Origin: a virus
Lineage: Duplodnaviria; Heunggongvirae; Uroviricota; Caudoviricetes
DNA length: 25,814 nucleotides
IMG/VR virus record: IMGVR_UViG_3300038492_000581
Coordinates: 1-25,814 of that record
Strand: one strand, 5' to 3'
A program made the translations under genes and the position numbers. This document shows, in pieces, positions 1,802 to 14,341 of the stretch. Numbering within the stretch: position 1 is the first letter of the stretch; each line of letters opens with the position of its first letter. Under the pieces are notes generated by a model. The model ran no database searches. It was given only the letters and a program-made list of their open reading frames with translations, and had not been told where the DNA came from.

Positions 1802-2131
1802 TTGAGGGCTTGGCAAATGTGTGATTTAAGAAAGATAGCTTCGATATCTGTTTTGGGACAGATTATTCAGGTTGATGTTCCGTTGCGACTCGTGGAGGAA
1901 AACCATTATTTGTCGCCGGGCTTATACAGAAAGCAACTGTCTGGAATTCCTGTAGGAATTCCCTGTTCTACGACCACACAGTATTTTGATGGTAAAGTTT
2001 GGCGTGAAGAAGGTGATGGTTGGGAAGTACATGAATTAATTGTGCCGGCTGAAAATGTCAGAAGAAAATATAATGATCAAGAGATAATAGATGGATTGCG
2101 GGAAGCTCTTTTCAAAATATTGGGAGCATAG
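1802..2131 (+). CDS. Hypothetical protein (possibly continues by +1 frameshift to 2258)
   Basis: 109-aa ORF filling the operon gap. The start is uncertain (TTG 1802 or a nearby ATG). Confidence 0.55.
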   Translation: MRAWQMCDLRKIASISVLGQIIQVDVPLRLVEENHYLSPGLYRKQLSGIPVGIPCSTTTQYFDGKVWREEGDGWEVHELIVPAENVRRKYNDQEIIDGLREALFKILGA

Positions 2132-2258
2132 TCATACCTTTAACAATGAGGAAGATATAAATCAAGATAGTTGTTCTGGGTTCTTTGGACGGCATGGAGA
2201 GATAGCAAGACAGGCATTAAATAAGTTCCATGAGAGTACAACGAAAGGGAATTGTTAA
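2091..2258 (+). CDS. 55-aa ORF (MDCGKLFSKYWEH...GEIARQALNKFHESTTKGNC) or frameshifted C-terminus of the preceding gene
   Basis: Translated by hand; it is below the 60-aa track cutoff. Its TAA (2256-2258) abuts the gmd ATG at 2259. Confidence 0.4.
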   Translation: MDCGKLFSKYWEHSHTFNNEEDINQDSCSGFFGRHGEIARQALNKFHESTTKGNC

Positions 2259-3332
2259 ATGAATTCGAAAACTGCTGTAATAACGGGAGTTACCGGACAA
2301 GACGGAATGTACCTTGCTCACTATCTTCTGTCTTTGGGATATAGGGTAGTTGGCGTAAATCGTAGAACGTCCATGCCAACCGATCAAAGACTGAGAACAT
2401 TACGAGGTAGCCCAAATTTTGTGGTTGTTAGCGGCGATGTGACCGACATTAGTAGCATTCAGTCTGTCATAGAGAAATTTTCTCCGGATGAGCTGTATCA
2501 TTTAGCAGCCCAGTCGCACGTGGGCGAGTCTTGGAACTCTCCTATTTCTACTTCGGATATTACCGGGATAGGGACACTTAACTGTCTGGAAGCCATTCGT
2601 AAGGCCAAGCCGGAGTGTCGGTTCTACTTTGCTGGTAGTAGTGAGCAGTTTGGTAATTCGATCCGAAAGGATTATGTTTCGGAATACGAAGGGTGTAGAT
2701 CAATTGTGCCAATGAAAACTATGGCCGATTTAGAGGATCGTATGCTTAATGAGCGGTCTCCTATGCACCCAGAATCCCCTTACGCAGCAGCGAAGGTATT
2801 CGGGTACAATATGACCCATGTTTATCGTAGATCTTACGACATGTTTGCTTCTTGCGGAATTTTATTTAACCACGAATCGCCTATGAGAGGTGATCAATTT
2901 GTGACCCGGAAGATCACTTTGGGGCTTGCAAATGTACTGGCCGGAAATCAGGATTGTGTGAATCTGGGTAACCTAAGTGCTTGTCGGGACTGGGGTTTTG
3001 CCGGAGATTACGTCAAGGCCATGCACGCCATGCTCCAGCTTGACCATCCCGACGACTTCGTGATCGCTACTGGCGAGACTCACTCTGTGCAAGAATTTGT
3101 TGACATTGCTTCGGATTATATGGGCCTTAATAAGGGTACTATTAACGTGGACCCCAATCTATTCAGGCCGAAGGATGTTGATGTACTGATTGGTGACGCT
3201 TCCAAGGCCAAGAATATTCTGGGATGGGAAGCGACTACTTCGTTCGAAAGTCTGGTACACATGATGTGTGATCATGATAAGGCTTTTGTGAAGGGTCGCC
3301 TGGATATCGCTGATACTTTTTTGGGAGTGTAA
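2259..3332 (+). CDS. gmd: GDP-mannose 4,6-dehydratase
   Basis: TGVTGQDG (GxxGxxG), AAQSHV, SSE, YAAAK (YxxxK), GILFNHESP.RG..FVTRKI, LGNL...RDWG.AGDYV. Carries a ~25-aa insertion after SSEQFG. Confidence 0.95.
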   Translation: MNSKTAVITGVTGQDGMYLAHYLLSLGYRVVGVNRRTSMPTDQRLRTLRGSPNFVVVSGDVTDISSIQSVIEKFSPDELYHLAAQSHVGESWNSPISTSDITGIGTLNCLEAIRKAKPECRFYFAGSSEQFGNSIRKDYVSEYEGCRSIVPMKTMADLEDRMLNERSPMHPESPYAAAKVFGYNMTHVYRRSYDMFASCGILFNHESPMRGDQFVTRKITLGLANVLAGNQDCVNLGNLSACRDWGFAGDYVKAMHAMLQLDHPDDFVIATGETHSVQEFVDIASDYMGLNKGTINVDPNLFRPKDVDVLIGDASKAKNILGWEATTSFESLVHMMCDHDKAFVKGRLDIADTFLGV

Positions 3333-3333
3333 G

Positions 3334-3996
3334 ATGGATAATATGAAGGGGCAAGAAGAGTACGTCGTGACCGATAGGGATAAGCGACTGTACCGAGCCA
3401 ATAAAGAGCGTCGTCGTACGTCGGCTCGTGAATTGACAGAGGAAGAGACTAATCTTTTCTTGACTATTGTGGCAGAGCACCGTGGCAGCGGAGAGCTTGA
3501 AGTAAAACTTGGGCTTAGTCGTGCCGACGCAGAGGAGATTAAGGCTCGATTGGGTATTGATCTACCTCAAGACGCTCGATCTCTACTTAATCGAAGGGCG
3601 GAGGAGAATATCGAACGCACTGAAGCAGAGATGCAGAAGAGACGTCTCGCGGCTAAGGCGGAGCAACGTGAACGTCAGGCTCGACAAAATGCTATGGACG
3701 ATCAGAGCCGAGTACTCAAAGTCGATGATGGCAACCTCCAAATGAGCAGCCAGCAGGCTAAAAGTGAATGGCGTGAACGAGAGAAGCGTGCAAGCAGAGA
3801 ACAAGTTAAGGCAGAAGAATCTGCTTGGCGTCTACCAAGAGGCGAAGAATTTGAGATTGTTGACCGCTTTAAGACGGATATTCTTATTCGTGGAATGCGT
3901 TTTTGTGTCGACAAATATGGTATAGAAGCTAAGGACATCCGAGCCGAGGCCGAGCGTCTTGGGCTTGGAATTGATTGGAGTTTGATACATCGATGA
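3334..3996 (+). CDS. Hypothetical charged, coiled-coil-rich protein
   Basis: 220-aa ORF rich in E/R/K, abutting both neighbours. Confidence 0.7.
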   Translation: MDNMKGQEEYVVTDRDKRLYRANKERRRTSARELTEEETNLFLTIVAEHRGSGELEVKLGLSRADAEEIKARLGIDLPQDARSLLNRRAEENIERTEAEMQKRRLAAKAEQRERQARQNAMDDQSRVLKVDDGNLQMSSQQAKSEWREREKRASREQVKAEESAWRLPRGEEFEIVDRFKTDILIRGMRFCVDKYGIEAKDIRAEAERLGLGIDWSLIHR

Positions 3997-4265
3997 TAAC
4001 TATAAGAAAAATTAAGAGGGCAATTAAAGCTGCCATCAGTCAATATCGAGCAGATACAGTTTTTGAAAATTTTGATTTTGCTGAATTGGCTCGTGGGCTA
4101 ACCAGTCGTCCGTATGAATTGGAAGGTCTGAGTTCATCACAAAATATCAAATTATATAGTTTGTATGATTTGATAGATGAATGTAAAAAGCAGGGTGTTG
4201 ATTGCAAGACCGTTGGGGACACAATCAGTAAGCTGCAAAATGATGAGGTTTTTGTTTCCAAGTGA
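3993..4265 (+). CDS. Hypothetical protein
   Basis: ATG 3993 overlaps the upstream TGA (ATGA); this is the likely start within track ORF 3975..4265. Confidence 0.6.
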   Translation: MITIRKIKRAIKAAISQYRADTVFENFDFAELARGLTSRPYELEGLSSSQNIKLYSLYDLIDECKKQGVDCKTVGDTISKLQNDEVFVSK

Positions 4266-4981
4266 TTAGGGGGCAACACGTTCTTCTGAGTATTCTATGT
4301 ACTATGGTTAATGACGCCAAACTAAAAACCGAATACCTTAGAGGCAAATCTGTCTCGGAGGTAGCCAAGATTGTTGGTTGTTCAAAAGCCACAGCTTATC
4401 GCCACCTCCGAGACATGGGAGTAATCCGTGACAAATCGAAGGCACAAAAAAACTATCAGACTAAGCACGGCCATCAGAGGAAGGGTTCTTCCCACGATGA
4501 GGCAAGTCGTGAACGCATTAGAAAATCTCAATCGGAGTTTTGGGGAAGCGACAAGAGCGATGAAGCTCGTGCAAAAATATCTGAAACACGAAAAAATGAG
4601 TGGAGAAGCTTGACTCCACGAGGCAAAAAAGCTATAGTAGATCAACTCACCGCTGCGTCTCGACCGAAGAAGGGCGAACTCTCTAAATTTGCCACAGCAT
4701 TCATTGGCTACGCCGAAGATCGAGAGCCGGTCCGCACAGGCATTTTCATAGCAGGCAAAAGATCCGCGGGCATACTGTTTATCGATCGCGGCATAGTAGT
4801 TGAAATCGTGCAACCACGGTTTGGTCTCTCTGAGTTACATAGAAAAGAGAGAGATGAGCTAAATCGCAGAGGTCTACACCTCATATTAGTTTTGAACAAT
4901 TCTAACTCTGTTTCTCAGTCTCGATGTCAAAGATTGTACGAACAGATTAACAACGAAGTTGAAGTTTTGGAGCTTGATTGA
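4262..4981 (+). CDS. HTH + NUMOD3-like repeats + degenerate Vsr/DUF559-like endonuclease domain
   Basis: N-terminal HTH (KSVSEVAKIVGCSKATAYRHL), HDEASRERIRKS and SDEARAKISETRK NUMOD3-like motifs, and a C-terminal DUF559-like pattern lacking the acidic/His catalytic residues. Confidence 0.55.
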   Translation: MIRGQHVLLSILCTMVNDAKLKTEYLRGKSVSEVAKIVGCSKATAYRHLRDMGVIRDKSKAQKNYQTKHGHQRKGSSHDEASRERIRKSQSEFWGSDKSDEARAKISETRKNEWRSLTPRGKKAIVDQLTAASRPKKGELSKFATAFIGYAEDREPVRTGIFIAGKRSAGILFIDRGIVVEIVQPRFGLSELHRKERDELNRRGLHLILVLNNSNSVSQSRCQRLYEQINNEVEVLELD

Positions 4982-5721
4982 TGACGGAAGAGAACGAGAT
5001 TGATGTGTCGGAAGAGCTGCTCGCCACGCGAGAGAGACCGGGCTTGATGGGTGGCATAGAAAAGGTTCCCAGCAAACTTCTTTCGAGAGACTGGAATGAG
5101 GAGCTTGAGGATGAGGACTGTGTTATTCAGGAGGGACGACGCCTTCCTACTCTCAAGGGTCTGCAAAAGCTCGCACGCCAAGCCGGATGGAACGGAAGTG
5201 ATTCAAACATCATAATTGGCGGAGATGGACGGCTGGTGAGTGCAACCGTCACTGTTGCTTTTGAAGATGGGTCAGTGTTTTCGGGTTCTGGCGATTGTAA
5301 CAAGAATAATTCCAAACCTCCATACTCCTATTATCCTACCGCCGTTGCCGAGTCTCGTGCGATGGCTCGGGCACTCAAAATTGCACTTGGGATCTTTGAG
5401 CTGACTGCCGAAGAGATTGGTTTTGGCGACGCGTTGTCAGGATTTTCTTCTTCAAGCGGCAAGGCGGTAAAGGTTAAGATAGACCCCGCTCAGATTAAGG
5501 CTGTTGAAGTGGCATTGCAGCGTCGTAAGATGGACTTTATTACTGTTGCCCAAGAGGTATTGGAAGAGCGGGCAGATGAGCTTACCAGTCTTGCTGATTT
5601 GACTTCCAAAGAAGGTCGGGATATTCTGTCATTTTTGAATAGCAAGAGTGTTGAAGATAATGTTGCAACGTCGAGAACTGCTCGCAAGAAAGAACTCAAG
5701 AAGCAGCTTGAAGAGGGTTAA
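4978..5721 (+). CDS. Putative single-strand annealing protein (Rad52/Sak/Erf-like)
   Basis: LKGLQKLA...ATVTVAFEDG..FSGSGD...AVAESRAMARALKIALGI...AEEI core, plus a C-terminal AQIKA...LT..E...I..L helical domain, as in phage SSAPs. Confidence 0.6.
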   Translation: MMTEENEIDVSEELLATRERPGLMGGIEKVPSKLLSRDWNEELEDEDCVIQEGRRLPTLKGLQKLARQAGWNGSDSNIIIGGDGRLVSATVTVAFEDGSVFSGSGDCNKNNSKPPYSYYPTAVAESRAMARALKIALGIFELTAEEIGFGDALSGFSSSSGKAVKVKIDPAQIKAVEVALQRRKMDFITVAQEVLEERADELTSLADLTSKEGRDILSFLNSKSVEDNVATSRTARKKELKKQLEEG

Positions 5722-5724
5722 GAG

Positions 5725-6246
5725 ATGCAGAGACCGTTAAGAGTATACAAACCAAATGCTGGAGGCAATGGATCAGCATTTCAGTTTAGCTATGGATTGA
5801 AACGTAAGGCTAAGGGTCCCGCTGAACCCGTTATGTTCATTGAGGCTACCAAGCAAGCAGGCCCAAAACCTAAGCCGGGCAGCTCTGAATCGTGTTTTGA
5901 CTGGTCCGATGAGAAGAAGACCGTTGTTATGATGAACACTGATGAGCTTGCACAGATTGTAGCGTTTATTACTGGACTTGATCGGGTTCGGCCTGGACGC
6001 GATGGAAAGCCGGATTTTTCGCGGAAGTTTTTTCATAAGCATGAGAGCGGCGACAAGTCTATTACTATTACCAAGCCGAACCCGAATGACGAAAATGATA
6101 AGTGGCAGAATTGGAAGATTTCGATCTCCAAAGGTAAGGGCGATTTCATTCAGACGTTCATGACTGCTGGCGAAGTCTACGCCCTTAAGCTGCTCTGTGA
6201 AAAGATTATTACTGAGTACTTTGGTCGGCCAATTTTGAGGAAGTGA
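5725..6246 (+). CDS. Whirly/PC4-fold ssDNA-binding protein (putative)
   Basis: VYK...G.AF, FDWSDEKKTVVMMNTDELAQI, FFH, KSITI, W.IS and MTAGEVYALKLL...I..YFG align by eye with plant Whirly IYKGKAAL, YDWSRKQ.FSLSVTEIG.I, EFFHD, KVLKV, FFNLS and VTKAEFAVL..AF......LLG. Confidence 0.6.
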   Translation: MQRPLRVYKPNAGGNGSAFQFSYGLKRKAKGPAEPVMFIEATKQAGPKPKPGSSESCFDWSDEKKTVVMMNTDELAQIVAFITGLDRVRPGRDGKPDFSRKFFHKHESGDKSITITKPNPNDENDKWQNWKISISKGKGDFIQTFMTAGEVYALKLLCEKIITEYFGRPILRK

Positions 6247-6247
6247 A

Positions 6248-6772
6248 ATGAATAATCCCCAAATAATTCAGTTCAATATCTTGTCAGAAGACGCTCGTCT
6301 TCCGACGAAAAATGATCCGGACGATCTCTGTTTTGATTTCTACGCCGCCGAAGATGCAACAATTTTTCCCGGCCAGACTGTTATGCTGACGTTTGGCTTG
6401 CGTGCGATTCTTCCGCAAGGTTTCGGCTTCGAAATCAAAGAGAGAAGTGGGCTTGCCAATAAGGGTATTATTGTTGGTGGTGGCGAGATTGATCAGGGAT
6501 ACCGTGGTGAATGGAAGGTAATCTTGCGGTACAACGCACCAAGAAGTACTGCTGATCCATCAACCGAATTGATTCTCGGTGCCAGAATTGGCAGCCAAAC
6601 ACCTATCCAGTTCAAAGGTAAGCCTTTTGAAATCAAAAAGGGTGATCGTGTTGCTCAGGGGCGTCTTGTTCGTATGATTGACACTCAAGTCAAGGAGATC
6701 TCTGATGAAAAGTTCGAGCGGATCGAGAAGACAGCCAGAGGCGAGCGAGGTTTCGGATCAAGCGGCCGATGA
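6248..6772 (+). CDS. dut: Trimeric dUTPase
   Basis: FDFYA, ERSGLA, GEIDQGYRGE, GDRVAQ and RGERGFGSSG (motifs 1-5). Confidence 0.95.
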   Translation: MNNPQIIQFNILSEDARLPTKNDPDDLCFDFYAAEDATIFPGQTVMLTFGLRAILPQGFGFEIKERSGLANKGIIVGGGEIDQGYRGEWKVILRYNAPRSTADPSTELILGARIGSQTPIQFKGKPFEIKKGDRVAQGRLVRMIDTQVKEISDEKFERIEKTARGERGFGSSGR

Positions 6773-7058
6773 CCGAACTCGTATTTGGTTTTGTCCACAG
6801 TGCGACAAGCAGAGGCTCGGTCTTCCTATGGGCGTCGAGCCCGATCGATCTCTTGTTGATGTAGAGACGCCTTCAGGAAAGATCGTACAGCTTTATAAAA
6901 ATGTTTGTGGATACTGTGAACGTAAGTATCTCGACAAATATTTCAATGCCGAGAAGAAGGCTGATAAGAAAATTGTTGAGGCCGTCAAAGATCTTGTAGA
7001 GAGTGGTGAAACAGATACTACTCTTCCTGATGGTCGTTCGCTTGAGGAGCTTTTGTAA
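6678..7058 (+). CDS. Hypothetical zinc-ribbon protein (start uncertain)
   Basis: CPQC...CGYC pairs. The in-frame starts overlap dut substantially; see the frameshift finding. Confidence 0.6.
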   Translation: MTLKSRRSLMKSSSGSRRQPEASEVSDQAADDRTRIWFCPQCDKQRLGLPMGVEPDRSLVDVETPSGKIVQLYKNVCGYCERKYLDKYFNAEKKADKKIVEAVKDLVESGETDTTLPDGRSLEELL

Positions 7059-7060
7059 AA

Positions 7061-8230
7061 GTGAAGGGTAACTACTGGACTGCCGGTCTCGATATCTTTG
7101 GCGAGGGTGTCGACAGCAAAATACCGGATGATGTCGTCGATGTGGCCATCATTGGCGGAGGATTTTCGGGTGCCAGCGTATTCTATCATCTGGGCAACAG
7201 AATGTCTTCTGTTATCATTGATGCTCACCCTCTGTGTGGCATGGATGGATCTTCAAAAGGTCCAGGCATCGTAACATGGATGAATGATTGTTCTATCAGT
7301 AGTGAGGCTTGCCAGTACTCCCTGATGAATAATAGGATGCTTGAAAGGGCCGTCAAATATGATGGGCTCGATTGTAGGTACCATCATGATGGACATGTCT
7401 ATCTTTCTCAGTTAGAGTCGGGGCTTCCGGGATTAGAAGCGGCACTTGCGAACTCAGACATGGCGGAAGCTTCTGAGAATTTCGCAATGCTACCCAGAGA
7501 CGCGATTGTTGGCGGAGTAATGTCTGAAAGTTTTGCAGGCGGGGCCTTTTTGCCATCAGCGTTTGCAGTTAATCCGCACTTACTTGTTAATAGCATGGTA
7601 GTGCAAACAAGAAGTGATAGGAACACAGTTGTTACTGGCAGCATAGTAGAGTGTGTTAATCGGGAAGATAGTATCTTTCGAATAACTCTAAAGGGAGAAC
7701 ATCACATTTTTGCTCGCAAGATAGTGTACTGTCTTGGAGCATACACACCACAATTGGTTCCCGAGACCGAAGATGTTATTGACCTAAAGAGAAATATTTG
7801 TATTGCTACTTCCAAGGTGCATGAACGAATGTTTTTCTCGTGGCCACGCTCTTCGATGTCGGCAGGCTATAAGTGGTATAGAAGCACGAACGGGCGAGTC
7901 CTCTCTGGTTATGCGGATGCATTCACTGGGGAATATGATTCGCCCGCGGTTTATCGTAAGGCCACAACTGATCTCTTTACAACTTTCCCTATAATTGAAG
8001 CCACTATCAAGTATAATTGGGTAAGCTTGTTTGGATCTACAAAGACTGGGCCGCTTGTGGGCCCACTTCCTAACCGGGAAAACGAGTATGTCAGTACGGG
8101 TTACGGAAATAGCTCTCTATCGTATGCATTTTTGAGCGGCTTTATTATCGCCGATCATTTGTTAAACGGCGGGAGTGATTTCCCATACTCTAATGCATTT
8201 AGTCCGGAGGGAAGATTGGATGGGGTTTGA
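7061..8230 (+). CDS. FAD-dependent oxidoreductase, DAO/glycine-oxidase family
   Basis: DVAIIGGGFSGASV (GxGxxG), S.K.PG, VNPHLLV, GPLVG and C-terminal TGYGNSSLSYAFLSG.IIAD. Confidence 0.85.
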   Translation: MKGNYWTAGLDIFGEGVDSKIPDDVVDVAIIGGGFSGASVFYHLGNRMSSVIIDAHPLCGMDGSSKGPGIVTWMNDCSISSEACQYSLMNNRMLERAVKYDGLDCRYHHDGHVYLSQLESGLPGLEAALANSDMAEASENFAMLPRDAIVGGVMSESFAGGAFLPSAFAVNPHLLVNSMVVQTRSDRNTVVTGSIVECVNREDSIFRITLKGEHHIFARKIVYCLGAYTPQLVPETEDVIDLKRNICIATSKVHERMFFSWPRSSMSAGYKWYRSTNGRVLSGYADAFTGEYDSPAVYRKATTDLFTTFPIIEATIKYNWVSLFGSTKTGPLVGPLPNRENEYVSTGYGNSSLSYAFLSGFIIADHLLNGGSDFPYSNAFSPEGRLDGV

Positions 8231-10376
8231 TATTGCACGACGAAGCTTTGAGCTTCCAGAATCATTCATTAAAAAGTTTCGCGGCAAACAACCAGAATGG
8301 GGACCTCTTGGTTACTTCACATTCAAAAGAACATACGCTCATCTTCTCGACTCAGACGACCCCTCGAAAGGTACTGAAGAGTGGTGGCAGGTTTGCCAGA
8401 GAGTAGTTGAGGGCACTTTTTCTATCCAAAAAAACCATTGCGAAGGCCAGCATTTGCCTTGGGATCAACGGAAGGCTATGCGGTCAGCCAAGGTTATGTA
8501 CCAACTCATGTGGGAATTTAAGTTCCTGCCGCCAGGCAGAGGACTCTGGCATATGGGGACTGGATACGTTGAAAGATCGGGAGGGGCATCACTTAATAAT
8601 TGCAGCTTTGTATCTACAAAAGATATTAGCAAAGAAGGTGCGAAACCTTTTTGTTTCATCATGGATATGTCCATGCTGGGAGTCGGCGTAGGTTTTGACG
8701 CTCGTGGATCTGGCAAGGTAGAGATTTTGGGGCCGACCAAGCAAGGGCGAGGTTACAAGAAAGAAGAGTATGTCATCCCGGATAGTCGGGAAGGTTGGGT
8801 GGAAAGTTTGCGGCTATTAATTGACGCATATATCTTTGAAAAGCCCTTACCTATTTTTGACTATACTAAGATTCGTCTTGCTGGAGCACCTATTAGAGGT
8901 TTTGGTGGAGTTGCATCTGGACCACAACCTCTCGTGGAAATGCATGAAGACATAGCAGAACTTTTGGAATCACGGATTGGCGATACTTTGAGTTCTGTTG
9001 ATATTATTGATATTGGGAATCTTATTGGTCGCTGTGTTGTTGCCGGTAACGTTCGCAGGACTGCCGAGATTACATTTGCTAAGCCTGAGGATTCTGACTT
9101 CCGTAAGATGAAGCAAGATCTTGGTAAGACATTTGCTAAAGCAAAAAAGTTTGGCATATGGCCCGTTAAGAACTCGACTGACGCTTATAACGCATTGACA
9201 GAAGTTCATAAGTTGGAAGATGTTCCAGATGGGTGGGAAGGCACTTTATCCGAGCTACGTAAGAGCGTCCGGCTTTCTGTTCGGGATCACTTCCCCAGCG
9301 TACATCATCGTTGGGCATCAAACAATTCCATCTTTGCGACCGTAGGCATGGATTATACTGAGGTTGCAGAAGATACGGTAATTAATGGTGAGCCTGGATA
9401 TGAATGGCTCGACAATGCTCGTGCCTACGGACGCATGATCGACCCTCCCAACCATAAAGATCGCTATGCCGTGGGTGGAAATCCGTGCTTAGAGCAAACT
9501 TTGTGGAATTATGAGCTTTGTACGCTTGTAGAAACTTTTCCGGCACGTCACGATTCCTTCGAAGAATTCAAAAAGACCTTGAAGATCGCGTACTTGTATG
9601 CTAAAACTGTGACGTTGGTGCCCACGCACTGGCCCGAGACGAACGGCGTTATGATGAAAAATCGACGCATCGGGTGCTCGCAGTCCGGCATTATTCGAGC
9701 TTTTAAAAAGCACGGACGTCGCGGCATGTTGAAGTGGTGCGACATGGGTTATAAGTATCTTGAGGGGCTTGATGAGGTCTATTCAGACTGGCTCGGAGTG
9801 CCGCACTCTATCAAAAAGACTTCGGTCAAGCCCTCTGGCACTGTATCTTTACTTCCTGGTGAAACACCTGGGATTCATTATCCTCATTCTCGTTACTATA
9901 TTCGCCGGATTAGGCTTGGGACTCATTCGCCTCTTATTGAGGTTGCTAAGAATGCTGGTTACAAGGTAGAGCCTGAAATTGGCAAAGAAGATACGAGTGT
10001 GGTAGTTGAGTTTCCTATTAAAGAACAGCTTTTTGAGCGTGCTAAAGAAGATGTTTCGGTGTGGGAACAGGTTGGTAACGCTGTTGAGTACCAAAGATAC
10101 TGGGCAGACAATCAAGTCTCTATCACTGTGACTTTCAAGCCTCAAGAGCGACAGGATATTAAGCATATTTTGGAGCTTAATGAGGACAAACTTAAGGGAA
10201 TTTCTTTCCTGCCGCTTTCAGATCATGGCTATGTACAAGCTCCTTATGAGACAATCACCGAAGAGCAGTATAACGAAATGGTCGGGAATTTGAAGCCAAT
10301 CAGTTTTGATAATGCTTTTGATCACGATGCTGAAGCCAGTCGTTTTTGCGACGGCGAGGCATGTACCTATAAATAG
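8220..10376 (+). CDS. nrdJ: Class II (adenosylcobalamin-dependent) ribonucleotide reductase, monomeric RTPR type
   Basis: FLPPGRGLW, LNNCSF, GVGVGFD, VVAGNVRRTAEI, GGNPCLEQ (NPCxE), TSVKPSGT and C-terminal CDGEAC. ATG 8220 follows a GGAGG RBS. No intein. Confidence 0.95.
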   Translation: MGFDIARRSFELPESFIKKFRGKQPEWGPLGYFTFKRTYAHLLDSDDPSKGTEEWWQVCQRVVEGTFSIQKNHCEGQHLPWDQRKAMRSAKVMYQLMWEFKFLPPGRGLWHMGTGYVERSGGASLNNCSFVSTKDISKEGAKPFCFIMDMSMLGVGVGFDARGSGKVEILGPTKQGRGYKKEEYVIPDSREGWVESLRLLIDAYIFEKPLPIFDYTKIRLAGAPIRGFGGVASGPQPLVEMHEDIAELLESRIGDTLSSVDIIDIGNLIGRCVVAGNVRRTAEITFAKPEDSDFRKMKQDLGKTFAKAKKFGIWPVKNSTDAYNALTEVHKLEDVPDGWEGTLSELRKSVRLSVRDHFPSVHHRWASNNSIFATVGMDYTEVAEDTVINGEPGYEWLDNARAYGRMIDPPNHKDRYAVGGNPCLEQTLWNYELCTLVETFPARHDSFEEFKKTLKIAYLYAKTVTLVPTHWPETNGVMMKNRRIGCSQSGIIRAFKKHGRRGMLKWCDMGYKYLEGLDEVYSDWLGVPHSIKKTSVKPSGTVSLLPGETPGIHYPHSRYYIRRIRLGTHSPLIEVAKNAGYKVEPEIGKEDTSVVVEFPIKEQLFERAKEDVSVWEQVGNAVEYQRYWADNQVSITVTFKPQERQDIKHILELNEDKLKGISFLPLSDHGYVQAPYETITEEQYNEMVGNLKPISFDNAFDHDAEASRFCDGEACTYK

Positions 10377-10385
10377 GAGTTTACG

Positions 10386-10730
10386 ATGACCCGCATCCAG
10401 CCCAGCGAAGAAATGCATATCGAGTTTGCTACAAATCAGACTACCAAGGAAAGGGTGGAGCACATGTGCATCATTACTCTTGGTAGAGCTATCAAGAGTA
10501 TTTCCGAAGATCGCCAGAAGGCATTGGTTAATGCTGTTATGAGCGAGATTGGCGGAGTTGAAACGTTCCGTCCCGTTTCGCCCTACTCTTTCGAGGTTGT
10601 GATTGCCAAAACCTTTCCGGCTGATCAAGTTTTGGAGGAAATTAAGAAGGAGATTGGTATTGCTACCAGCCCTCTTGATCTTCCCGCGGGAGGCGGTGGT
10701 AAGCTGATTGTTGGAAATTTTGAGAAATGA
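10386..10730 (+). CDS. Hypothetical protein
   Basis: 114-aa ORF with a GGAG RBS upstream. Confidence 0.65.
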   Translation: MTRIQPSEEMHIEFATNQTTKERVEHMCIITLGRAIKSISEDRQKALVNAVMSEIGGVETFRPVSPYSFEVVIAKTFPADQVLEEIKKEIGIATSPLDLPAGGGGKLIVGNFEK

Positions 10731-11114: not shown

Positions 11115-11512
11115 TAATCATACTTGATGACAATCCCAGTAGAGTCGCTATGCTTCGTGGTATGACAAGTACAAGGGTAGTTCACTTCGAAGAGGTGGCA
11201 CCATTTATCGAGTACTTGGAAGCCCACAAGGGAAGTCCTCGTCTGATAATGCTTGATCACGATCTTGGCGGCAAGCCTCCCATGTATTATGGACAGTTTT
11301 GTGATCCCGAGGATACCAGAACGGGCAGCGAAGCAGCACGCCAGATGGTTCAGAAGAGCTTAGTGAGTCAAGATTCGCTTTGTATTATTCATTCAGAAAA
11401 TCCAATTGGCGTACAGAGTTTGCTCCAAATACTTGGAGGCAAGTCGGATCTTGCTGTTGTTCCATTTCGTTCCTTACAAAGATTTCTTGATAAGTTGAAA
11501 TCGGAGTTTTAA
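11111..11512 (+). CDS. Stand-alone cyclic-phosphate-processing receiver (REC-like) domain protein
   Basis: ILDD, LDHDLG, TG and IIHSENPIG motifs typical of this atypical receiver family. Confidence 0.75.
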   Translation: MIIILDDNPSRVAMLRGMTSTRVVHFEEVAPFIEYLEAHKGSPRLIMLDHDLGGKPPMYYGQFCDPEDTRTGSEAARQMVQKSLVSQDSLCIIHSENPIGVQSLLQILGGKSDLAVVPFRSLQRFLDKLKSEF

Positions 11513-12273
11513 TGGTTAAGAGAATTGTCAGCTCTGGCGATGGCATGCCCAAAGGTGCTATCTCCGTCCTTGATAAGGGGTTTGTTCGAGTAACAGATAC
11601 ACTTGGATCTGATATCACTCCCGTGAATGCGGCTCGAATTTCCTTCGGAAAAGAAGTGAGTGAATTCTCTCCTGAAAAGGATGGCAAGCTTCTTGATTAT
11701 CTTGCGAGCCACAAGCACACCTCCCCTTTTCGTCACGCTATGATTCAGTTTCACATCAAGGCTCCCGAAGTTGTTATGCGACAGTGGTGGAAGCACATCG
11801 TTGGGTGTAATTGGACTGCTGAGGATGGATCTTTCAACGATACGGGATGGAATGAGATCAGCGGGCGATATGTGGAGTTTACTCCGGAATTCTATGTGCC
11901 TGAGTCCTTTCGGCCTCAGTCACAAAGCAATAAGCAGGCGTCTGATGATGGAGATCTGTCTAATAAAGTGATCGGTGCTAAGGGCTTCTTTTCCACTCAT
12001 ACTGTTCGCAATGAATACTTAGAGGCTATCGACGATGCATATAAAAGTTATGATCGTTTGATAAAGGCGGGAGTCTCAAAAGAGCAAGCCCGTATGGTTC
12101 TTCCCATCAGTCTTTATGTCGAATGCTACTGGACTGCATCTCTTCAGGCGGTTGCACATTTCTGCAAGCTGCGTGTTCATAAAGGAGCACAGGGCGAGAT
12201 TCAGGAGTACGCTAACGCGGTCAACGATCTTGCTTCTCAAGCTTTTCCTCATGCCTTTGAAAAGTTGCTATGA
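11512..12273 (+). CDS. thyX: Flavin-dependent thymidylate synthase
   Basis: VNAARISF, HKHTSPFRH, RQWWKH, WNEISGRY, GVSKEQARMVLP and LRVHKGAQGEIQEYA. Confidence 0.95.
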   Translation: MVKRIVSSGDGMPKGAISVLDKGFVRVTDTLGSDITPVNAARISFGKEVSEFSPEKDGKLLDYLASHKHTSPFRHAMIQFHIKAPEVVMRQWWKHIVGCNWTAEDGSFNDTGWNEISGRYVEFTPEFYVPESFRPQSQSNKQASDDGDLSNKVIGAKGFFSTHTVRNEYLEAIDDAYKSYDRLIKAGVSKEQARMVLPISLYVECYWTASLQAVAHFCKLRVHKGAQGEIQEYANAVNDLASQAFPHAFEKLL

Positions 12274-13125: not shown

Positions 13126-13581
13126 ATGAGTCATCACGGAACTCATGAAGCTTACTCGGTCTTAGGATCGGGTACAGTCCCAACCCTTAATCAATCTCCG
13201 GCATTATCTGGAGCACTCGCTGGGGGCCAAGCTCCCATTCCAGATGTTACCAAAGATCTGCGGATGCGGACAGGAGAGGCTGCCGCTATTATCAACCCAG
13301 AAGACTTCTCCGTCTTTCTCGGGTTTAGGCATCAGGCTGTTGCGGTCAATACTTCTGTTACTCCAATTCCTCAATCCCCGTTAGAAAACAGAAGAGCGAT
13401 AACCATTCATAACAACGGCCCCGATATTGTTTATCTGGGCTTTGACGGAGTCTCTACGACTGAAGGCTTTCCTCTTTTGGTAAATGAGAAAATAGCCTTT
13501 TCATTACAAGGCAATGTTAGTGTAATGGTGTATGGAATTTCAGAAGGAGCCTCTGACGTGAGGATAATTGAAATTGCATAA
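13126..13581 (+). CDS. Putative virion structural protein, paralog of 12655..13092
   Basis: RRAITIHNNG...VYLG...GFPL...EK...VYGI...DVRII, with an AAGGAG RBS. Confidence 0.65.
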   Translation: MSHHGTHEAYSVLGSGTVPTLNQSPALSGALAGGQAPIPDVTKDLRMRTGEAAAIINPEDFSVFLGFRHQAVAVNTSVTPIPQSPLENRRAITIHNNGPDIVYLGFDGVSTTEGFPLLVNEKIAFSLQGNVSVMVYGISEGASDVRIIEIA

Positions 13582-14341
13582 CTGGAGCGACGAAGAAATT
13601 GAAATCCTACGAAGAGATTACGGCAACACTCTCGTGCAGGAAATTCCGATTGACAGATCGGTTAGATCGATCTATCTAAAAGCACATAGGCTGGGCCTAA
13701 AAGGTGAGGTAGGACCAAAACCAATTTATTCATATGATGAATCTGCATTCGATTCAGACTATGCAACTTATTGGGCGGGCTTTATCGCTGCCGATGGCAA
13801 TATATCCGTCAATATGCGTGTTCTTCAATTAGATTTGGTTCACAAAGATAGAGATCATCTGAAAAAGTTCAAAGATTTCATTAATTATAGCGGACCTATA
13901 TATGATTATTCAAAGTCATGTAAATTGACGATAAATAATGCGAAATCAATAACAGAAAGGCTGGCAGCTTTTGGAGTAAGGCCCCGGAAGACTTTTGCTA
14001 TACAGCCGCCAGCTTATTTGTCAGATGATGCTGCTCTTCATTTTATAAGAGGTTATTTCGATGGAGATGGTTGGTTTACCGAGAGTAAATCTCATGGTAA
14101 ATATAAATACCCTGTAATTGGATTTTGTGGGACTTTAGGTATGATGGAGTGGGTGTACCAATCTATTTCTGATAAAGTAAATCTCAAAAGGTCTCACTCA
14201 ATACATCCACACAATAATATCTATCAATTCACCATTACAGGAAGCAGCGTTTTGGATATTTGCGAGTGGCTATATTCAAATTCTAATGAAGATGTCCGTT
14301 TGACAAGAAAATATAAGGTTTATAGAAATTGGTTGGCATAA
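13568..14341 (+). mobile_element. Free-standing double-motif LAGLIDADG homing endonuclease with N-terminal HTH
   Basis: YWAGFIAADG and FIRGYFDGDG motifs, N-terminal WSDEEIEILR...R....I..KA.RLGL. Overlaps both neighbours by 13-14 nt and is visibly AT-richer. Confidence 0.85.

What the first reader, a model, noticed from the sequence alone, without database searches (positions are those of the whole stretch)
4978..6246. SSAP paired with a plant-Whirly-like ssDNA-binding protein
ORF 5725..6246 matches plant Whirly proteins by eye along its whole length (YK..A, DWS.K....E...I, FFH, K.I.I, hydrophobic strand, T.AE...L...LG). It occupies the slot directly after an annealing protein where phages normally carry an OB-fold SSB. 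Whirly proper is known as a plant organellar ssDNA-binding and repair protein, with distant fold relatives such as PC4, Pur and MRP1/2. A phage SSAP-Whirly recombination module would be unusual and would bear on the origin of organellar Whirly.
Basis: inference. Interest (0 to 1): 0.75.

Follow-up and report, generated by a model that had tools for sequence, protein, structure and literature searches.

The report
Phage annealing protein paired with Whirly
A large uncultured phage carries a true but divergent relative of the plant-organelle "Whirly" single-stranded-DNA-binding proteins, fused into one operon with a Rad52/Redβ-like DNA-annealing protein. In sister phages an unrelated zinc-ribbon protein holds the same position, so the gene looks like a swappable helper of phage recombination rather than the phage's main SSB.

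Summary
Both ORFs are real and tightly coupled. The upstream gene's stop overlaps the SSAP start as TGATG, and only 3 nt separate the SSAP from the Whirly gene.

**Whirly gene (5725-6246).** It models as ββββα x2 (pLDDT 83.5). Its best structural matches are plant WHY1/2/3 and PBF-2 (E about 1e-7). Sequence links it to Pfam-Whirly-positive proteins (hhalign 99.6%, E 7.6e-25). A homotetramer is predicted.

**Annealing gene (4981-5721).** It has no Pfam or PHROG match. Its model combines a Rad52/Sak/Redβ-like core with a Redβ-type C-terminal domain.

**The "SSB slot" idea is wrong.** This phage and 9 of 10 relatives searched also encode a canonical OB-fold SSB; this phage's copy ends in an acidic tip.

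**New result.** In 68 IMG/VR loci with this SSAP, the next gene is a Whirly in 7, an unrelated Cys4 zinc-ribbon protein in 60, and both in none. Ten whole records hold exactly one of the two. The partner type changed at least 2-3 times on the SSAP tree.

**Reading.** The Whirly protein is most likely an SSAP-dedicated ssDNA-binding accessory. This is an inference; nothing has been tested biochemically.

This scan had already noted phage Whirly proteins on other DNA, and UniProt auto-labels one. I found no description of the SSAP pairing or of the alternation with the zinc-ribbon protein.

The parts
4262..4981 (+). Conserved upstream gene (239 aa): N-terminal HTH and NUMOD-like DNA-binding part plus a C-terminal DUF559/Vsr-like (PD-(D/E)xK-type) nuclease-like domain. 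Its stop TGA (4979-4981) overlaps the SSAP start ATG (4981-4983).
   Evidence: HTH hits are below the Pfam cut-offs, with a weak match to PHROG 664. ESM-Atlas feature and structure neighbours are DUF559 and 'homing endonuclease family' clusters, a lead only. The gene is syntenic in L002, L004, L005 and L014, and NUMOD3 scores 21.6 bits in the L005 homolog. Junction read.
4981..5721 (+). SSAP-like protein (246 aa) of an unannotated family. N-terminal β-β-β-α annealing-type core at aa 27-141 (nt 5059-5403), disordered linker at aa 147-164, Redβ-CTD-like three-helix domain at aa 162-228 (nt 5464-5664), then a basic C-terminal helix.
   Evidence: AF2 model pLDDT 67.4. Foldseek top hits are RAD52, 80α Sak and Mgm101 at E 1-3e-3, prob 0.99-1.0. 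VIA-align: Redβ CTD Z 8.6/8.2, RAD52 Z 8.0, Sak 7.2, Redβ NTD 7.2, Mgm101 6.4. Named Atlas neighbours are RecT, ERF, Rad52 and Sak. No Pfam or PHROG hit.
5713..5717 (+). Shine-Dalgarno-like GAGGG, 7 nt upstream of the Whirly ATG and inside the end of the SSAP gene.
   Evidence: Sequence read directly.
5725..6246 (+). Whirly-family protein (173 aa): two ββββα repeats, predicted homotetramer through helices 72-90 and 147-172, short basic C-terminus and no acidic SSB-like tip.
6248..6772 (+). dUTPase, the next gene of the same tightly packed run. Its ATG lies 1 nt after the Whirly stop.
   Evidence: Pfam PF00692 E 2.7e-20 and PHROG 135 E 1.5e-41. Junction read. dUTPase or MazG follows the pair in relatives.

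Best explanation
The segment is a phage recombination operon: an HTH-nuclease-like gene, then an SSAP, then a Whirly-family protein, then dUTPase. The 246-aa protein belongs to a large unannotated family of the Rad52/Redβ superfamily of single-strand annealing proteins. It has an N-terminal annealing core and a Redβ-type C-terminal partner-docking domain. The 173-aa protein is a divergent but genuine Whirly-domain protein that most likely forms a whirligig tetramer and binds single-stranded DNA on its β-sheet faces. It is not the replicative SSB, because the phage keeps a canonical OB-fold SSB with an acidic tip elsewhere. I infer that it is an accessory ssDNA binder made together with the SSAP. 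On this reading it coats ssDNA exposed at breaks, ends or forks and presents it to the SSAP for annealing, or restricts what the SSAP can anneal. In about 90% of sister phages an unrelated Cys4 zinc-ribbon protein holds the same slot. Shown here: fold, homology, operon coupling, conservation of the pair, mutual exclusivity with the zinc-ribbon gene, and coexistence with OB-fold SSB. Inferred: ssDNA binding, tetramer formation, cooperation with the SSAP, and the direction of any effect on annealing.
For: Whirly identity:
- AF2 model pLDDT 83.5, β4-α-β4-α.
- The 15 best PDB matches are all plant Whirly chains (E 9e-8 to 2e-6, TM about 0.6, full length), followed by MRP1/2 and PUR. Swiss-Prot models give the same order.
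- The clade profile finds 171 cluster representatives, and 60 of the 150 scanned hit Pfam Whirly (best 1.7e-10).
- hhalign against Pfam-positive protist and archaeal members gives 99.6%, E 7.6e-25. That set hits WHY1/WHY3/PBF-2/WHY2 in the PDB.
- Direct BLASTP to a Thecamonas Whirly-positive protein gives 32% identity over 160 aa, E 5e-14.
- Homotetramer prediction: score 0.91, best of 3 controls 0.00. That mark was reached by 20 of 30 proteins solved as pairs of one chain and by 1 of 23 solved as single chains. Runs agree in at least 92% of contacts and partner pLDDT is at least 85. The interface lies on the two helices, as in solved Whirly tetramers, so the pass may reflect likeness to those structures.

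SSAP identity: with details under parts.

Coupling: TGATG overlap, a 3-nt gap preceded by GAGGG, and a 1-nt gap to dUTPase.

Partnership:
- SSAP-Whirly adjacency occurs in the window, L001, L013, L014 and 7 IMG/VR loci, with gaps of -4 to +5 nt.
- Of 68 IMG/VR SSAP loci, 7 have Whirly, 60 have the zinc-ribbon gene, 0 have both and 1 has neither.
- Whole-record searches with positive controls: 5 of 5 Whirly-type records have one Whirly and no zinc-ribbon gene, and 5 of 5 zinc-ribbon-type records (91-100% complete) have the reverse.
- The partner label needs 3 changes on the SSAP tree, of which at least 2 are forced by well-supported branches.

Not the main SSB: an OB-fold SSB is present in the window's own genome (E 9.6e-26, tail ...DDDQLF) and in 9 of 10 relatives.

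Family-level hint of SSB-like function: more distant members end in DDDVPF, DDDDLPF or ADAPF tips. One of them sits directly downstream of DnaE-type Pol III α.

Literature parallels: phage SSAPs work with cognate SSBs (PMC5928155). Plant WHY2 co-purifies with the Rad52 homologue ODB1, and both act in mitochondrial recombination repair (PMC9070903, PMC6981420).
Against: - No biochemical data exist for any phage member.
- The window protein itself fails Pfam Whirly, and its clade lacks the acidic tip seen in other members.
- The literal KGKAAL motif of plant Whirlies, with the lysine needed for 24-mer assembly, is not present. The protein has YKPNAGGNGSAF instead (PMC3245945).
- The SSAP call rests on a medium-confidence model (pLDDT 67). 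Its matches score Z of at most 8.6, which the tool notes is a common level. dsRBD domains match the same core almost as well (Z 6-7.3). No curated SSAP HMM hits it.
- Adjacency and mutual exclusivity show linkage, not physical or functional interaction.
- The zinc-ribbon alternative has no known function, so 'functional equivalence' is an inference.
- Whirly-fold proteins can be RNA binders, as ChmC and MRP1/2 are (PMC11077065).
Confidence: 0.6

Rival explanations
1. The Whirly protein acts as a brake or fidelity filter rather than a helper. Like plant Whirlies, it would coat resected ssDNA and block annealing at short microhomologies, so that the SSAP joins only long homologous tracts.
For: [quoted passage not shown] The homology and the predicted tetramer are the same as for the best explanation. 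The tight co-expression with an SSAP also fits a modulator.
Against: The second lysine of KGKAAL, needed for cooperative 24-mer coating in plants, is not conserved (PMC3245945). Nothing here tells stimulation from inhibition. Repeated exchange with a small zinc-ribbon protein says nothing about direction.
Confidence: 0.15
2. The gene order is inherited synteny in a variable early-gene slot. The Whirly protein would then do something unrelated to the SSAP, for example act as a decoy or shield against host defences that sense phage ssDNA or SSB, or compact DNA.
For: The slot is variable: Whirly, zinc-ribbon or, in one locus, neither, and some loci carry 200-700 nt inserts between the SSAP and the zinc-ribbon gene. 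Neighbouring genes (dUTPase, MazG, DAO, RNR) are nucleotide-metabolism genes, not recombination genes. Host systems that sense phage SSB exist (abstract of 10.1101/2025.11.11.687766).
Against: 67 of 68 loci keep one of the two genes directly after the SSAP, mostly with overlapping stop and start codons. Each whole record has exactly one copy of one type, at that site only. This persists over SSAP divergence down to about 25-30% identity.
Confidence: 0.12
3. It is an RNA-binding protein in the manner of ChmC of nucleus-forming jumbo phages or trypanosome MRP1/2. It would act on phage transcripts or promote RNA-RNA or RNA-DNA annealing.
For: MRP1/2 are the next-best structural matches (E 3e-6 to 5e-4), and 2 of 150 family members hit Pfam MRP. 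ChmC is a phage Whirly-fold homotetramer that prefers RNA (PMC11077065).
Against: Plant ssDNA-binding Whirlies match better than MRP in both structure and sequence. The protein lacks ChmC's long disordered tail; only residues 170-173 are low-confidence. The context is an SSAP operon. Other family members carry SSB-type tips next to a replicative polymerase.
Confidence: 0.1
4. It is the phage's replicative SSB, replacing an OB-fold SSB. This is the core of the first reader's 'slot' argument.
For: Some distant family members with DDDxPF tips sit in replication modules.
Against: The window's own genome has a canonical PF00436 SSB with an acidic ...DDDQLF tip. Four of 5 Whirly-type and 5 of 5 zinc-ribbon-type relatives have one too. 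The window protein has a basic C-terminus.
Confidence: 0.03

Closest known systems
Plant organellar Whirly proteins (StWHY1/p24 of PBF-2, StWHY2, AtWHY1-3; Pfam PF08536; PDB 1l3a, 3n1h, 4koo, 4kop, 4koq)
   Same: Same two-repeat ββββα fold over the full length (E about 1e-7, TM about 0.6). Sequence homology is detectable through intermediates. The FDW/YDW and FxH motifs and the terminal helix are shared. A helix-mediated homotetramer is predicted. Both coexist with an OB-fold SSB and with a Rad52-type protein (plant WHY2 with ODB1).
   Different: Only about 15% identity to plant proteins. No transit peptide. The KGKAAL motif is replaced by YKPN-x5-G-x-A-x-QF, without the lysine needed for plant 24-mers. 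It is phage-encoded and translationally coupled to an SSAP. ssDNA binding is untested.
Protist and archaeal Whirly-like proteins (e.g. Thecamonas trahens AMSG_10476, Amoeba proteus transcript, a Micrarchaeota MAG protein)
   Same: These are the nearest named relatives: 32% identity over 160 aa to the Thecamonas protein, and hhalign 99.6%. They share the YKPN..G.A.QF and FDW motifs and pass the Pfam Whirly cut-off.
   Different: The eukaryotic ones carry N-terminal presequence-like extensions. None is characterised, and their gene context is unknown here.
Phage SSAP plus cognate SSB modules (λ Redβ with host SSB tail; HK620 Sak4 with its SSB; RecT-SSB compatibility)
   Same: An annealing protein is co-encoded with a single-strand-binding partner. 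The SSAP here has a Redβ-like C-terminal domain (Z 8.6), the domain that in λ binds Exo and the SSB tail.
   Different: The adjacent partner is a Whirly fold (or, in sister phages, a zinc ribbon) rather than an OB-fold SSB, and it lacks an acidic tip. The phage's OB-fold SSB is encoded elsewhere. No λ-Exo-type exonuclease was recognised. The upstream gene looks like an HTH-DUF559 nuclease.
ChmC of Chimalliviridae (PhiPA3 gp61, phiKZ gp67, Goslar gp176)
   Same: A phage-encoded Whirly-fold protein, a homotetramer, that binds single-stranded nucleic acid.
   Different: ChmC prefers RNA, has a long disordered C-terminal region, belongs to nucleus-forming jumbo phages and shows no sequence similarity to Whirly. 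The protein here is compact, is sequence-related to Whirly proper, and sits in an SSAP operon.
Phage T5 PC4-like protein (PDB 4bg7) and other PC4-like ssDNA binders
   Same: A non-OB ssDNA-binding fold of the same broad PC4-like/Whirly class in a phage, implicated in recombination-dependent replication (PMC7549692).
   Different: T5 PC4-like is a single-repeat protein that dimerises (type II). The protein here has both repeats in one chain (type I) and groups with Whirly, not PC4.

Membership tests
Whirly domain family (Pfam PF08536, broad sense) | Two tandem β-β-β-β-α repeats forming two antiparallel sheets packed against a helix pair | tested here: met
   The AF2 model (pLDDT 83.5) has strands 5-9, 17-26, 34-44, 66-70, helix 72-83, strands 99-104, 111-116, 130-136, 140-146 and helix 148-166. 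Whirly chains fill the top 15 PDB matches.
Whirly domain family (Pfam PF08536, broad sense) | Detectable sequence homology to the Whirly domain | tested here: met
   Direct hmmscan of the window protein finds nothing. Close homologs score E 0.0063-0.17, and L035's SSAP-linked homolog passes the cut-off (25.1 vs 23 bits). The clade profile against Pfam-positive members gives 99.6%, E 7.6e-25, and those members hit WHY1-3/PBF-2 in the PDB at E 6e-8. BLASTP to Whirly-positive P0069 gives E 5e-14.
Whirly domain family (Pfam PF08536, broad sense) | Homotetramer ('whirligig') held by the helices | tested here: met
   Prediction only. Score 0.91, best of 3 controls 0.00. That mark was reached by 20 of 30 proteins solved as pairs of one chain and by 1 of 23 solved as single chains. 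Runs agree in at least 92% of contacts and partner pLDDT is at least 85. The interface is at residues 72-90 and 147-172. The pass may come from likeness to solved Whirly tetramers.
Whirly domain family (Pfam PF08536, broad sense) | Sequence-non-specific binding of single-stranded DNA on the β-sheet surface | not testable with these tools
   Needs EMSA or fluorescence polarisation with purified protein.
Plant WHIRLY proteins sensu stricto (WHY1-3) | KGKAAL motif with the second lysine that drives 24-mer assembly | tested here: not met
   The window protein has VYKPNAGGNGSAFQF at this place, and the family consensus is IYKPN....G.A.QF. The motif's role is taken from PMC3245945 and PMC9070903.
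Plant WHIRLY proteins sensu stricto (WHY1-3) | N-terminal organelle-targeting peptide, nuclear-encoded | tested here: not met
   The fold starts at residue 4-5 of a phage ORF.
Rad52/Redβ superfamily of single-strand annealing proteins | β-β-β-α annealing core | tested here: met
   The model has strands 70-79, 85-94, 99-107 and helix 119-136. Matches: RAD52 Z 8.0 (rmsd 4.8, 108 aligned), Sak Z 7.2, Redβ NTD Z 7.2, Mgm101 Z 6.4. Foldseek prob 0.99-1.0 at E about 1e-3. Caveats: model pLDDT is 67, and dsRBDs match at Z 6-7.3.
Rad52/Redβ superfamily of single-strand annealing proteins | Membership in a curated SSAP sequence family (Rad52_Rad22 PF04098, SSAP_Sak PF06378, RecT PF03837, ERF PF04404) | tested here: not met
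   None of the nine family members scanned hits any of these at E up to 10. The PF04098 and PF06378 HMMs do not ring on the genome. None of the 120 homologs listed carries a precomputed Pfam domain. It is therefore filed as a new family with the superfamily's fold, not as a member of a named family.
Rad52/Redβ superfamily of single-strand annealing proteins | Small C-terminal helical domain as in Redβ, which docks Exo and the SSB tail | tested here: met
   Residues 162-228 match 8tfu_A at Z 8.6 (rmsd 2.9, 67 of 70) and 6m9k_D at Z 8.2. This is fold only; the partner is unknown.
Rad52/Redβ superfamily of single-strand annealing proteins | Oligomeric ring or filament, and annealing of complementary ssDNA | not tested
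Bacterial/phage OB-fold SSB (PF00436) | OB-fold ssDNA-binding domain with an acidic C-terminal tip | tested here: not met
   ORF 5725-6246 is not an OB fold and ends ...GRPILRK. The genome's real SSB is at G000:C1:39591-39893(-), 134 aa, ending ...DDDQLF.
ChmC (Chimalliviridae) | Whirly-like fold followed by a 50-70-residue disordered N/G-rich tail | tested here: not met
   Only residues 170-173 are below pLDDT 50. The ChmC description is from PMC11077065.

The most novel reading that the evidence does not exclude
The Rad52-type SSAP plus Whirly cassette of large marine phages is the evolutionary source, or a sister lineage of the source, of the eukaryotic organellar pair Rad52-like ODB1/Mgm101 plus Whirly. 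On this reading 'plant-specific' Whirly proteins entered eukaryotes from a phage recombination module, as the T7-like organellar replication enzymes did. The SSAP's partner slot would be a general plug-in position, taking Whirly or zinc-ribbon, that tunes annealing and could be exploited for recombineering.
Probability: 0.12. Interest if true: 0.85.

Novelty: new variant of a known kind. Interest (0 to 1): 0.6.

Why it matters
A 2022 review (PMC9070903) calls Whirly proteins plant-specific. Here a sequence-related Whirly sits in a phage recombination operon directly behind a Rad52/Redβ-like annealing protein. This mirrors the plant mitochondrial association of WHY2 with the Rad52 homologue ODB1.

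The finding has three consequences.
- It gives a simple microbial system for asking what a Whirly protein does to strand annealing. That question is still open in plants: whether ODB1 and WHY2 compete or cooperate was left unresolved (PMC9070903).
- It exposes a large SSAP family, with more than 149 clusters and no Pfam or PHROG match for the members scanned, and two alternative co-encoded partners. SSAP-partner compatibility limits recombineering in new hosts, so this is relevant there.
- It supplies phage relatives close to protist Whirly-like proteins for a proper test of where organellar Whirly came from.

Tried and rejected
- **Single-sequence searches of both window proteins.** Pfam, PHROGs and PDB sequences gave nothing useful. 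Small clade profiles against PDB also found nothing.
- **The search for related loci with the narrow Whirly alignment A1 in IMG/VR.** It matched 233 patterns but confirmed none. The SSAP alignment worked instead.
- **tblastn against 50,697 deposited phage genomes.** No match for the window Whirly or for two other family members. The SSAP gave one weak hit to Paenibacillus phage API480 (29% over 47% of the query, E 1e-3). No cultured phage model is therefore at hand.
- **Curated SSAP HMMs.** Pfam Rad52 and Sak HMMs on the genome, and hmmscan of nine SSAP family members at E up to 10, found no SSAP family.
- **PHROGs for relatives.** The zinc-ribbon partner and relatives' SSAP and Whirly proteins gave only weak hits to families of unknown function. 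ESM-Atlas features for the zinc-ribbon protein returned only unnamed viral clusters.
- **Whole-record search through loci from metagenome assemblies.** IMG/VR records were used instead.
- **Promoter and terminator scan of 2000-10500.** Counts were no higher than in shuffled sequence, so no transcription unit boundaries could be set.
- **Ideas rejected.** Whirly as a replacement for the OB-fold SSB. The upstream 239-aa gene as a freely mobile homing endonuclease, since it is syntenic across relatives, though its nuclease nature is only a lead. The small zinc-ribbon ORF 6678-7058 as the window's copy of the slot protein: it matches a different gene, L002's 96-aa protein.
Full report
**1. Observation**

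The window is part of a 109,785-bp uncultured phage record, estimated 64% complete. Its genes include a glycosyltransferase, GDP-mannose dehydratase, dUTPase, a DAO-type oxidoreductase, class II ribonucleotide reductase, ThyX, a LAGLIDADG endonuclease, PhoH and peptide deformylase.

Both ORFs of the finding exist on the + strand. The first is listed from TTG 4978, but the database form starts at ATG 4981 and is 246 aa. The junctions are very tight:
- The stop of the upstream 239-aa gene (TGA 4979-4981) overlaps that ATG as TGATG.
- The SSAP stop (TAA 5719-5721) is followed by the Whirly ATG at 5725, with GAGGG 7 nt upstream.
- The dUTPase ATG lies 1 nt after the Whirly stop.

A consensus promoter and terminator scan gave no more sites than shuffled sequence, so transcription unit borders are not defined.

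**2. The 173-aa protein is a Whirly-family protein**

On its own it matches nothing in Pfam, PHROGs or PDB sequences. A word-indexed search found only four relatives at 40-69% identity.

The structural evidence is clear. An AlphaFold2 model from these five sequences is confident (pLDDT 83.5, pTM 0.78) and shows β4-α-β4-α. Foldseek against the PDB puts 15 plant Whirly chains first (WHY2, StWhy2, PBF-2 p24, WHY3, WHY1; E 9e-8 to 2e-6, TM about 0.6, full length). Trypanosome MRP1/2 and PUR repeats follow. Swiss-Prot models give the same order.

Sequence evidence agrees:
- A profile of the five sequences finds 171 cluster representatives among 1.84 billion.
- Sixty of the 150 scanned hit Pfam Whirly at E of 0.01 or better, with a best value of 1.7e-10.
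- Members with presequence-like N-termini include proteins of Thecamonas trahens and Amoeba proteus. Several pass the Pfam cut-off.
- The window clade aligns to seven such proteins at 99.6% probability, E 7.6e-25, over 140 columns.
- That second profile hits WHY1, WHY3, PBF-2 and WHY2 in the PDB at 6e-8 to 4e-6.
- The window protein is 32% identical over 160 residues to the Thecamonas protein (E 5e-14).

A four-copy prediction scored 0.91 against 0.00 for the best of 3 controls. That mark was reached by 20 of 30 proteins solved as pairs of one chain and by 1 of 23 solved as single chains. Runs agree in at least 92% of contacts and partner pLDDT is at least 85. The interface lies on the two helices. 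Whirly tetramers are solved structures, so this pass may show likeness rather than independent evidence.

The literal KGKAAL motif of higher-plant Whirlies is absent; the protein has YKPNAGGNGSAF. The second lysine of that motif drives 24-mer assembly in plants (PMC3245945). I therefore file the protein under the Whirly domain family in the broad sense, not as a plant-type WHIRLY.

**3. The 246-aa protein is SSAP-like, with lower confidence**

No Pfam or PHROG family matches it or its relatives. The Rad52 and Sak HMMs do not ring on the genome. A profile search finds at least 149 clusters, mostly on 50-180-kb phage contigs; none of the 120 listed carries a precomputed Pfam domain.

The model is of medium quality (pLDDT 67.4) and has two domains separated by a disordered linker. 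Foldseek's best matches are human RAD52, the 80α Sak SSAP and yeast Mgm101 (E 1-3e-3, prob 0.99-1.0). An exhaustive alignment to PDB representatives gives these values:

| Model region | Match | Z |
|---|---|---|
| Residues 162-228 | Redβ C-terminal domain (8tfu; rmsd 2.9, 67 of 70 residues) | 8.6 |
| Residues 162-228 | Redβ C-terminal domain (6m9k) | 8.2 |
| Residues 27-141 | RAD52 | 8.0 |
| Residues 27-141 | Sak | 7.2 |
| Residues 27-141 | Redβ N-terminal domain | 7.2 |
| Residues 27-141 | Mgm101 | 6.4 |

In the ESM Atlas the named neighbours are RecT/Bet, ERF, Rad52 and Sak clusters.

Two caveats apply. Z values of this size are common, and dsRBDs match the same core at Z 6-7.3. The argument rests on convergence: an SSAP-type core and a Redβ-type C-terminal domain in the same protein, in the same order as in Redβ.

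**4. It does not fill the SSB slot**

The genome has a canonical OB-fold SSB (PF00436, E 9.6e-26) about 34 kb away. It is 134 aa and ends ...DDDQLF. Four of five Whirly-type and five of five zinc-ribbon-type related records also have one. The Whirly protein is therefore an additional protein, not the replicative SSB. Its own C-terminus is basic.

**5. What the slot holds in relatives**

Contigs carrying close Whirly homologs show the same order. L001 has SSAP, Whirly, dUTPase. L013 has a partial SSAP, Whirly, dUTPase. L014 has two GDP-mannose dehydratase genes, a 235-aa gene, a 241-aa HTH gene, a 227-aa SSAP, Whirly and MazG.

More distant, otherwise syntenic phages have a 102-124-aa Cys4 zinc-ribbon protein between the SSAP and dUTPase or MazG.

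I fetched 68 IMG/VR loci encoding an SSAP relative and classified the neighbours with HMMs built from the Whirly and zinc-ribbon alignments:

| Gene directly after the SSAP | Loci | Gap to SSAP |
|---|---|---|
| Whirly | 7 | -4 to +5 nt |
| Zinc-ribbon | 60 | mostly -4 to +15 nt |
| Both | 0 | - |
| Neither | 1 | - |

Whole-record searches confirm this, each with a positive control:
- Five zinc-ribbon-type records (91-100% complete) have no Whirly anywhere and exactly one zinc-ribbon gene.
- Five Whirly-type records have exactly one Whirly and no zinc-ribbon gene.

On a maximum-likelihood tree of 66 SSAPs the partner label needs three changes, at least two of which are forced by well-supported branches. 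Whirly-type rows form the early branches of one of the two main clades (midpoint root, for drawing only).

All eight SSAP-linked phage homologs scanned (seven from IMG/VR plus L014's) have Pfam Whirly as a top hit, and L035's passes the cut-off. Four of them (L035, L037, L039, L043) are nearer to the protist-type profile than to the window's clade.

**6. Interpretation**

One of two unrelated small proteins is almost always translationally coupled to this SSAP. Only one of them is ever present per genome, and they have been exchanged more than once. The simplest reading is that both serve the SSAP. Because the Whirly fold binds single strands, I take the Whirly version to be an SSAP-dedicated ssDNA-binding accessory.

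Known parallels support this reading:
- Phage SSAPs depend on cognate or compatible SSBs (PMC5928155; 10.1101/2020.04.14.041095).
- In plant mitochondria WHY2 co-purifies with the Rad52 homologue ODB1, and both affect recombination repair (PMC9070903, PMC6981420).

Several things remain inference: whether the phage protein helps or restrains annealing, whether it touches the SSAP's C-terminal domain, and whether that domain instead binds the OB-SSB tip. The RNA-binding alternative (ChmC, MRP1/2; PMC11077065) is less likely but not excluded.

**7. Wider family and prior knowledge**

Other family members end in bacterial-SSB-like tips such as ...DDDVPF...DDDDLPF and ...ADAPF. One of them, seen in 36 blocks of the collection, lies directly after DnaE-type Pol III α, an RNase T-like exonuclease and a ClpB-like ATPase. 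The family therefore also supplies SSB-like hubs in other phages.

UniProt already auto-names one uncultured phage protein 'Whirly transcription factor'; it is the best BFVD match. This scan has noted phage Whirly proteins many times on other DNA, and the SSAP pairing once.

In the searchable literature I found ChmC, the T5 PC4-like protein and the PC4-like fold review. I found no paper on phage Whirly-SSAP modules. A 2022 review still calls WHIRLIES plant-specific (PMC9070903).

**8. Verdict**

The new elements are the conserved SSAP-Whirly operon, its genome-wide mutual exclusivity with a zinc-ribbon partner, and the parallel with the plant ODB1-WHY2 pair. Novelty: a new variant of a known kind. 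Interest: 0.6.

Noticed in passing
L002:5681-5989, L004:5692-6027, L005:3482-3856 and 60 of the IMG/VR loci L015-L082: An unannotated 102-124-aa Cys4 zinc-ribbon protein family (CxxC...YYEL.C..C, conserved W.RW near the C-terminus). It is almost always translationally coupled behind this SSAP family and is mutually exclusive with the Whirly gene genome-wide. Function unknown; no Pfam, PHROG or Atlas name.
   Followed up: partly
window 4262-4981 (+): A 239-aa gene with an HTH and NUMOD-like N-terminal part. Its C-terminal domain has DUF559/Vsr-like 'homing endonuclease family' clusters as Atlas neighbours. It is conserved in synteny directly upstream of the SSAP and overlaps its start. It could be the nuclease partner of the recombination module rather than a mobile endonuclease.
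   Followed up: partly
G000:C1:39591-39893 (-), outside the window (L007:1411-1815): A canonical OB-fold SSB of the same phage, 134 aa, ending in the acidic tip ...NEDDDQLF. It is a candidate ligand of the SSAP's Redβ-like C-terminal domain.
   Followed up: partly
L008:8001-8609 (also L009, L010); L011:2006-2725: Whirly-family proteins with bacterial-SSB-like acidic tips (...DEFADAPF, ...EETDDVPF) in other phage contigs. They lie immediately downstream of DnaE-type Pol III α, an RNase T-like exonuclease and a ClpB-like ATPase, and look like Whirly-fold replicative SSB hubs.
   Followed up: partly
window 6678-7058 (+): A small CxxC...CxxC protein after dUTPase, 28% identical (E 4e-12) to a 96-aa gene at the same position in L002. 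It is distinct from the SSAP-linked zinc-ribbon family. Its listed TTG start overlaps dUTPase by 95 nt, so the real start is probably later.
   Followed up: partly
window 3334-3996 (+): A 220-aa Arg/Glu-rich protein with no family match. It is conserved at the same position (220-235 aa) upstream of the HTH-nuclease gene in L002, L004 and L014.
   Followed up: no
window 13568-14341 (+): A LAGLIDADG-type homing endonuclease ORF about 1.3 kb downstream of the ThyX gene (11512-12273).
   Followed up: no
AFDB cluster A0A5P9BH43: A 189-aa protein auto-named 'NinB protein' matches the Whirly model (E 2.6e-6, TM 0.60). NinB/Orf is a λ recombination mediator, so the name may be wrong, or may hint at a further link between this fold and phage recombination.
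   Followed up: no
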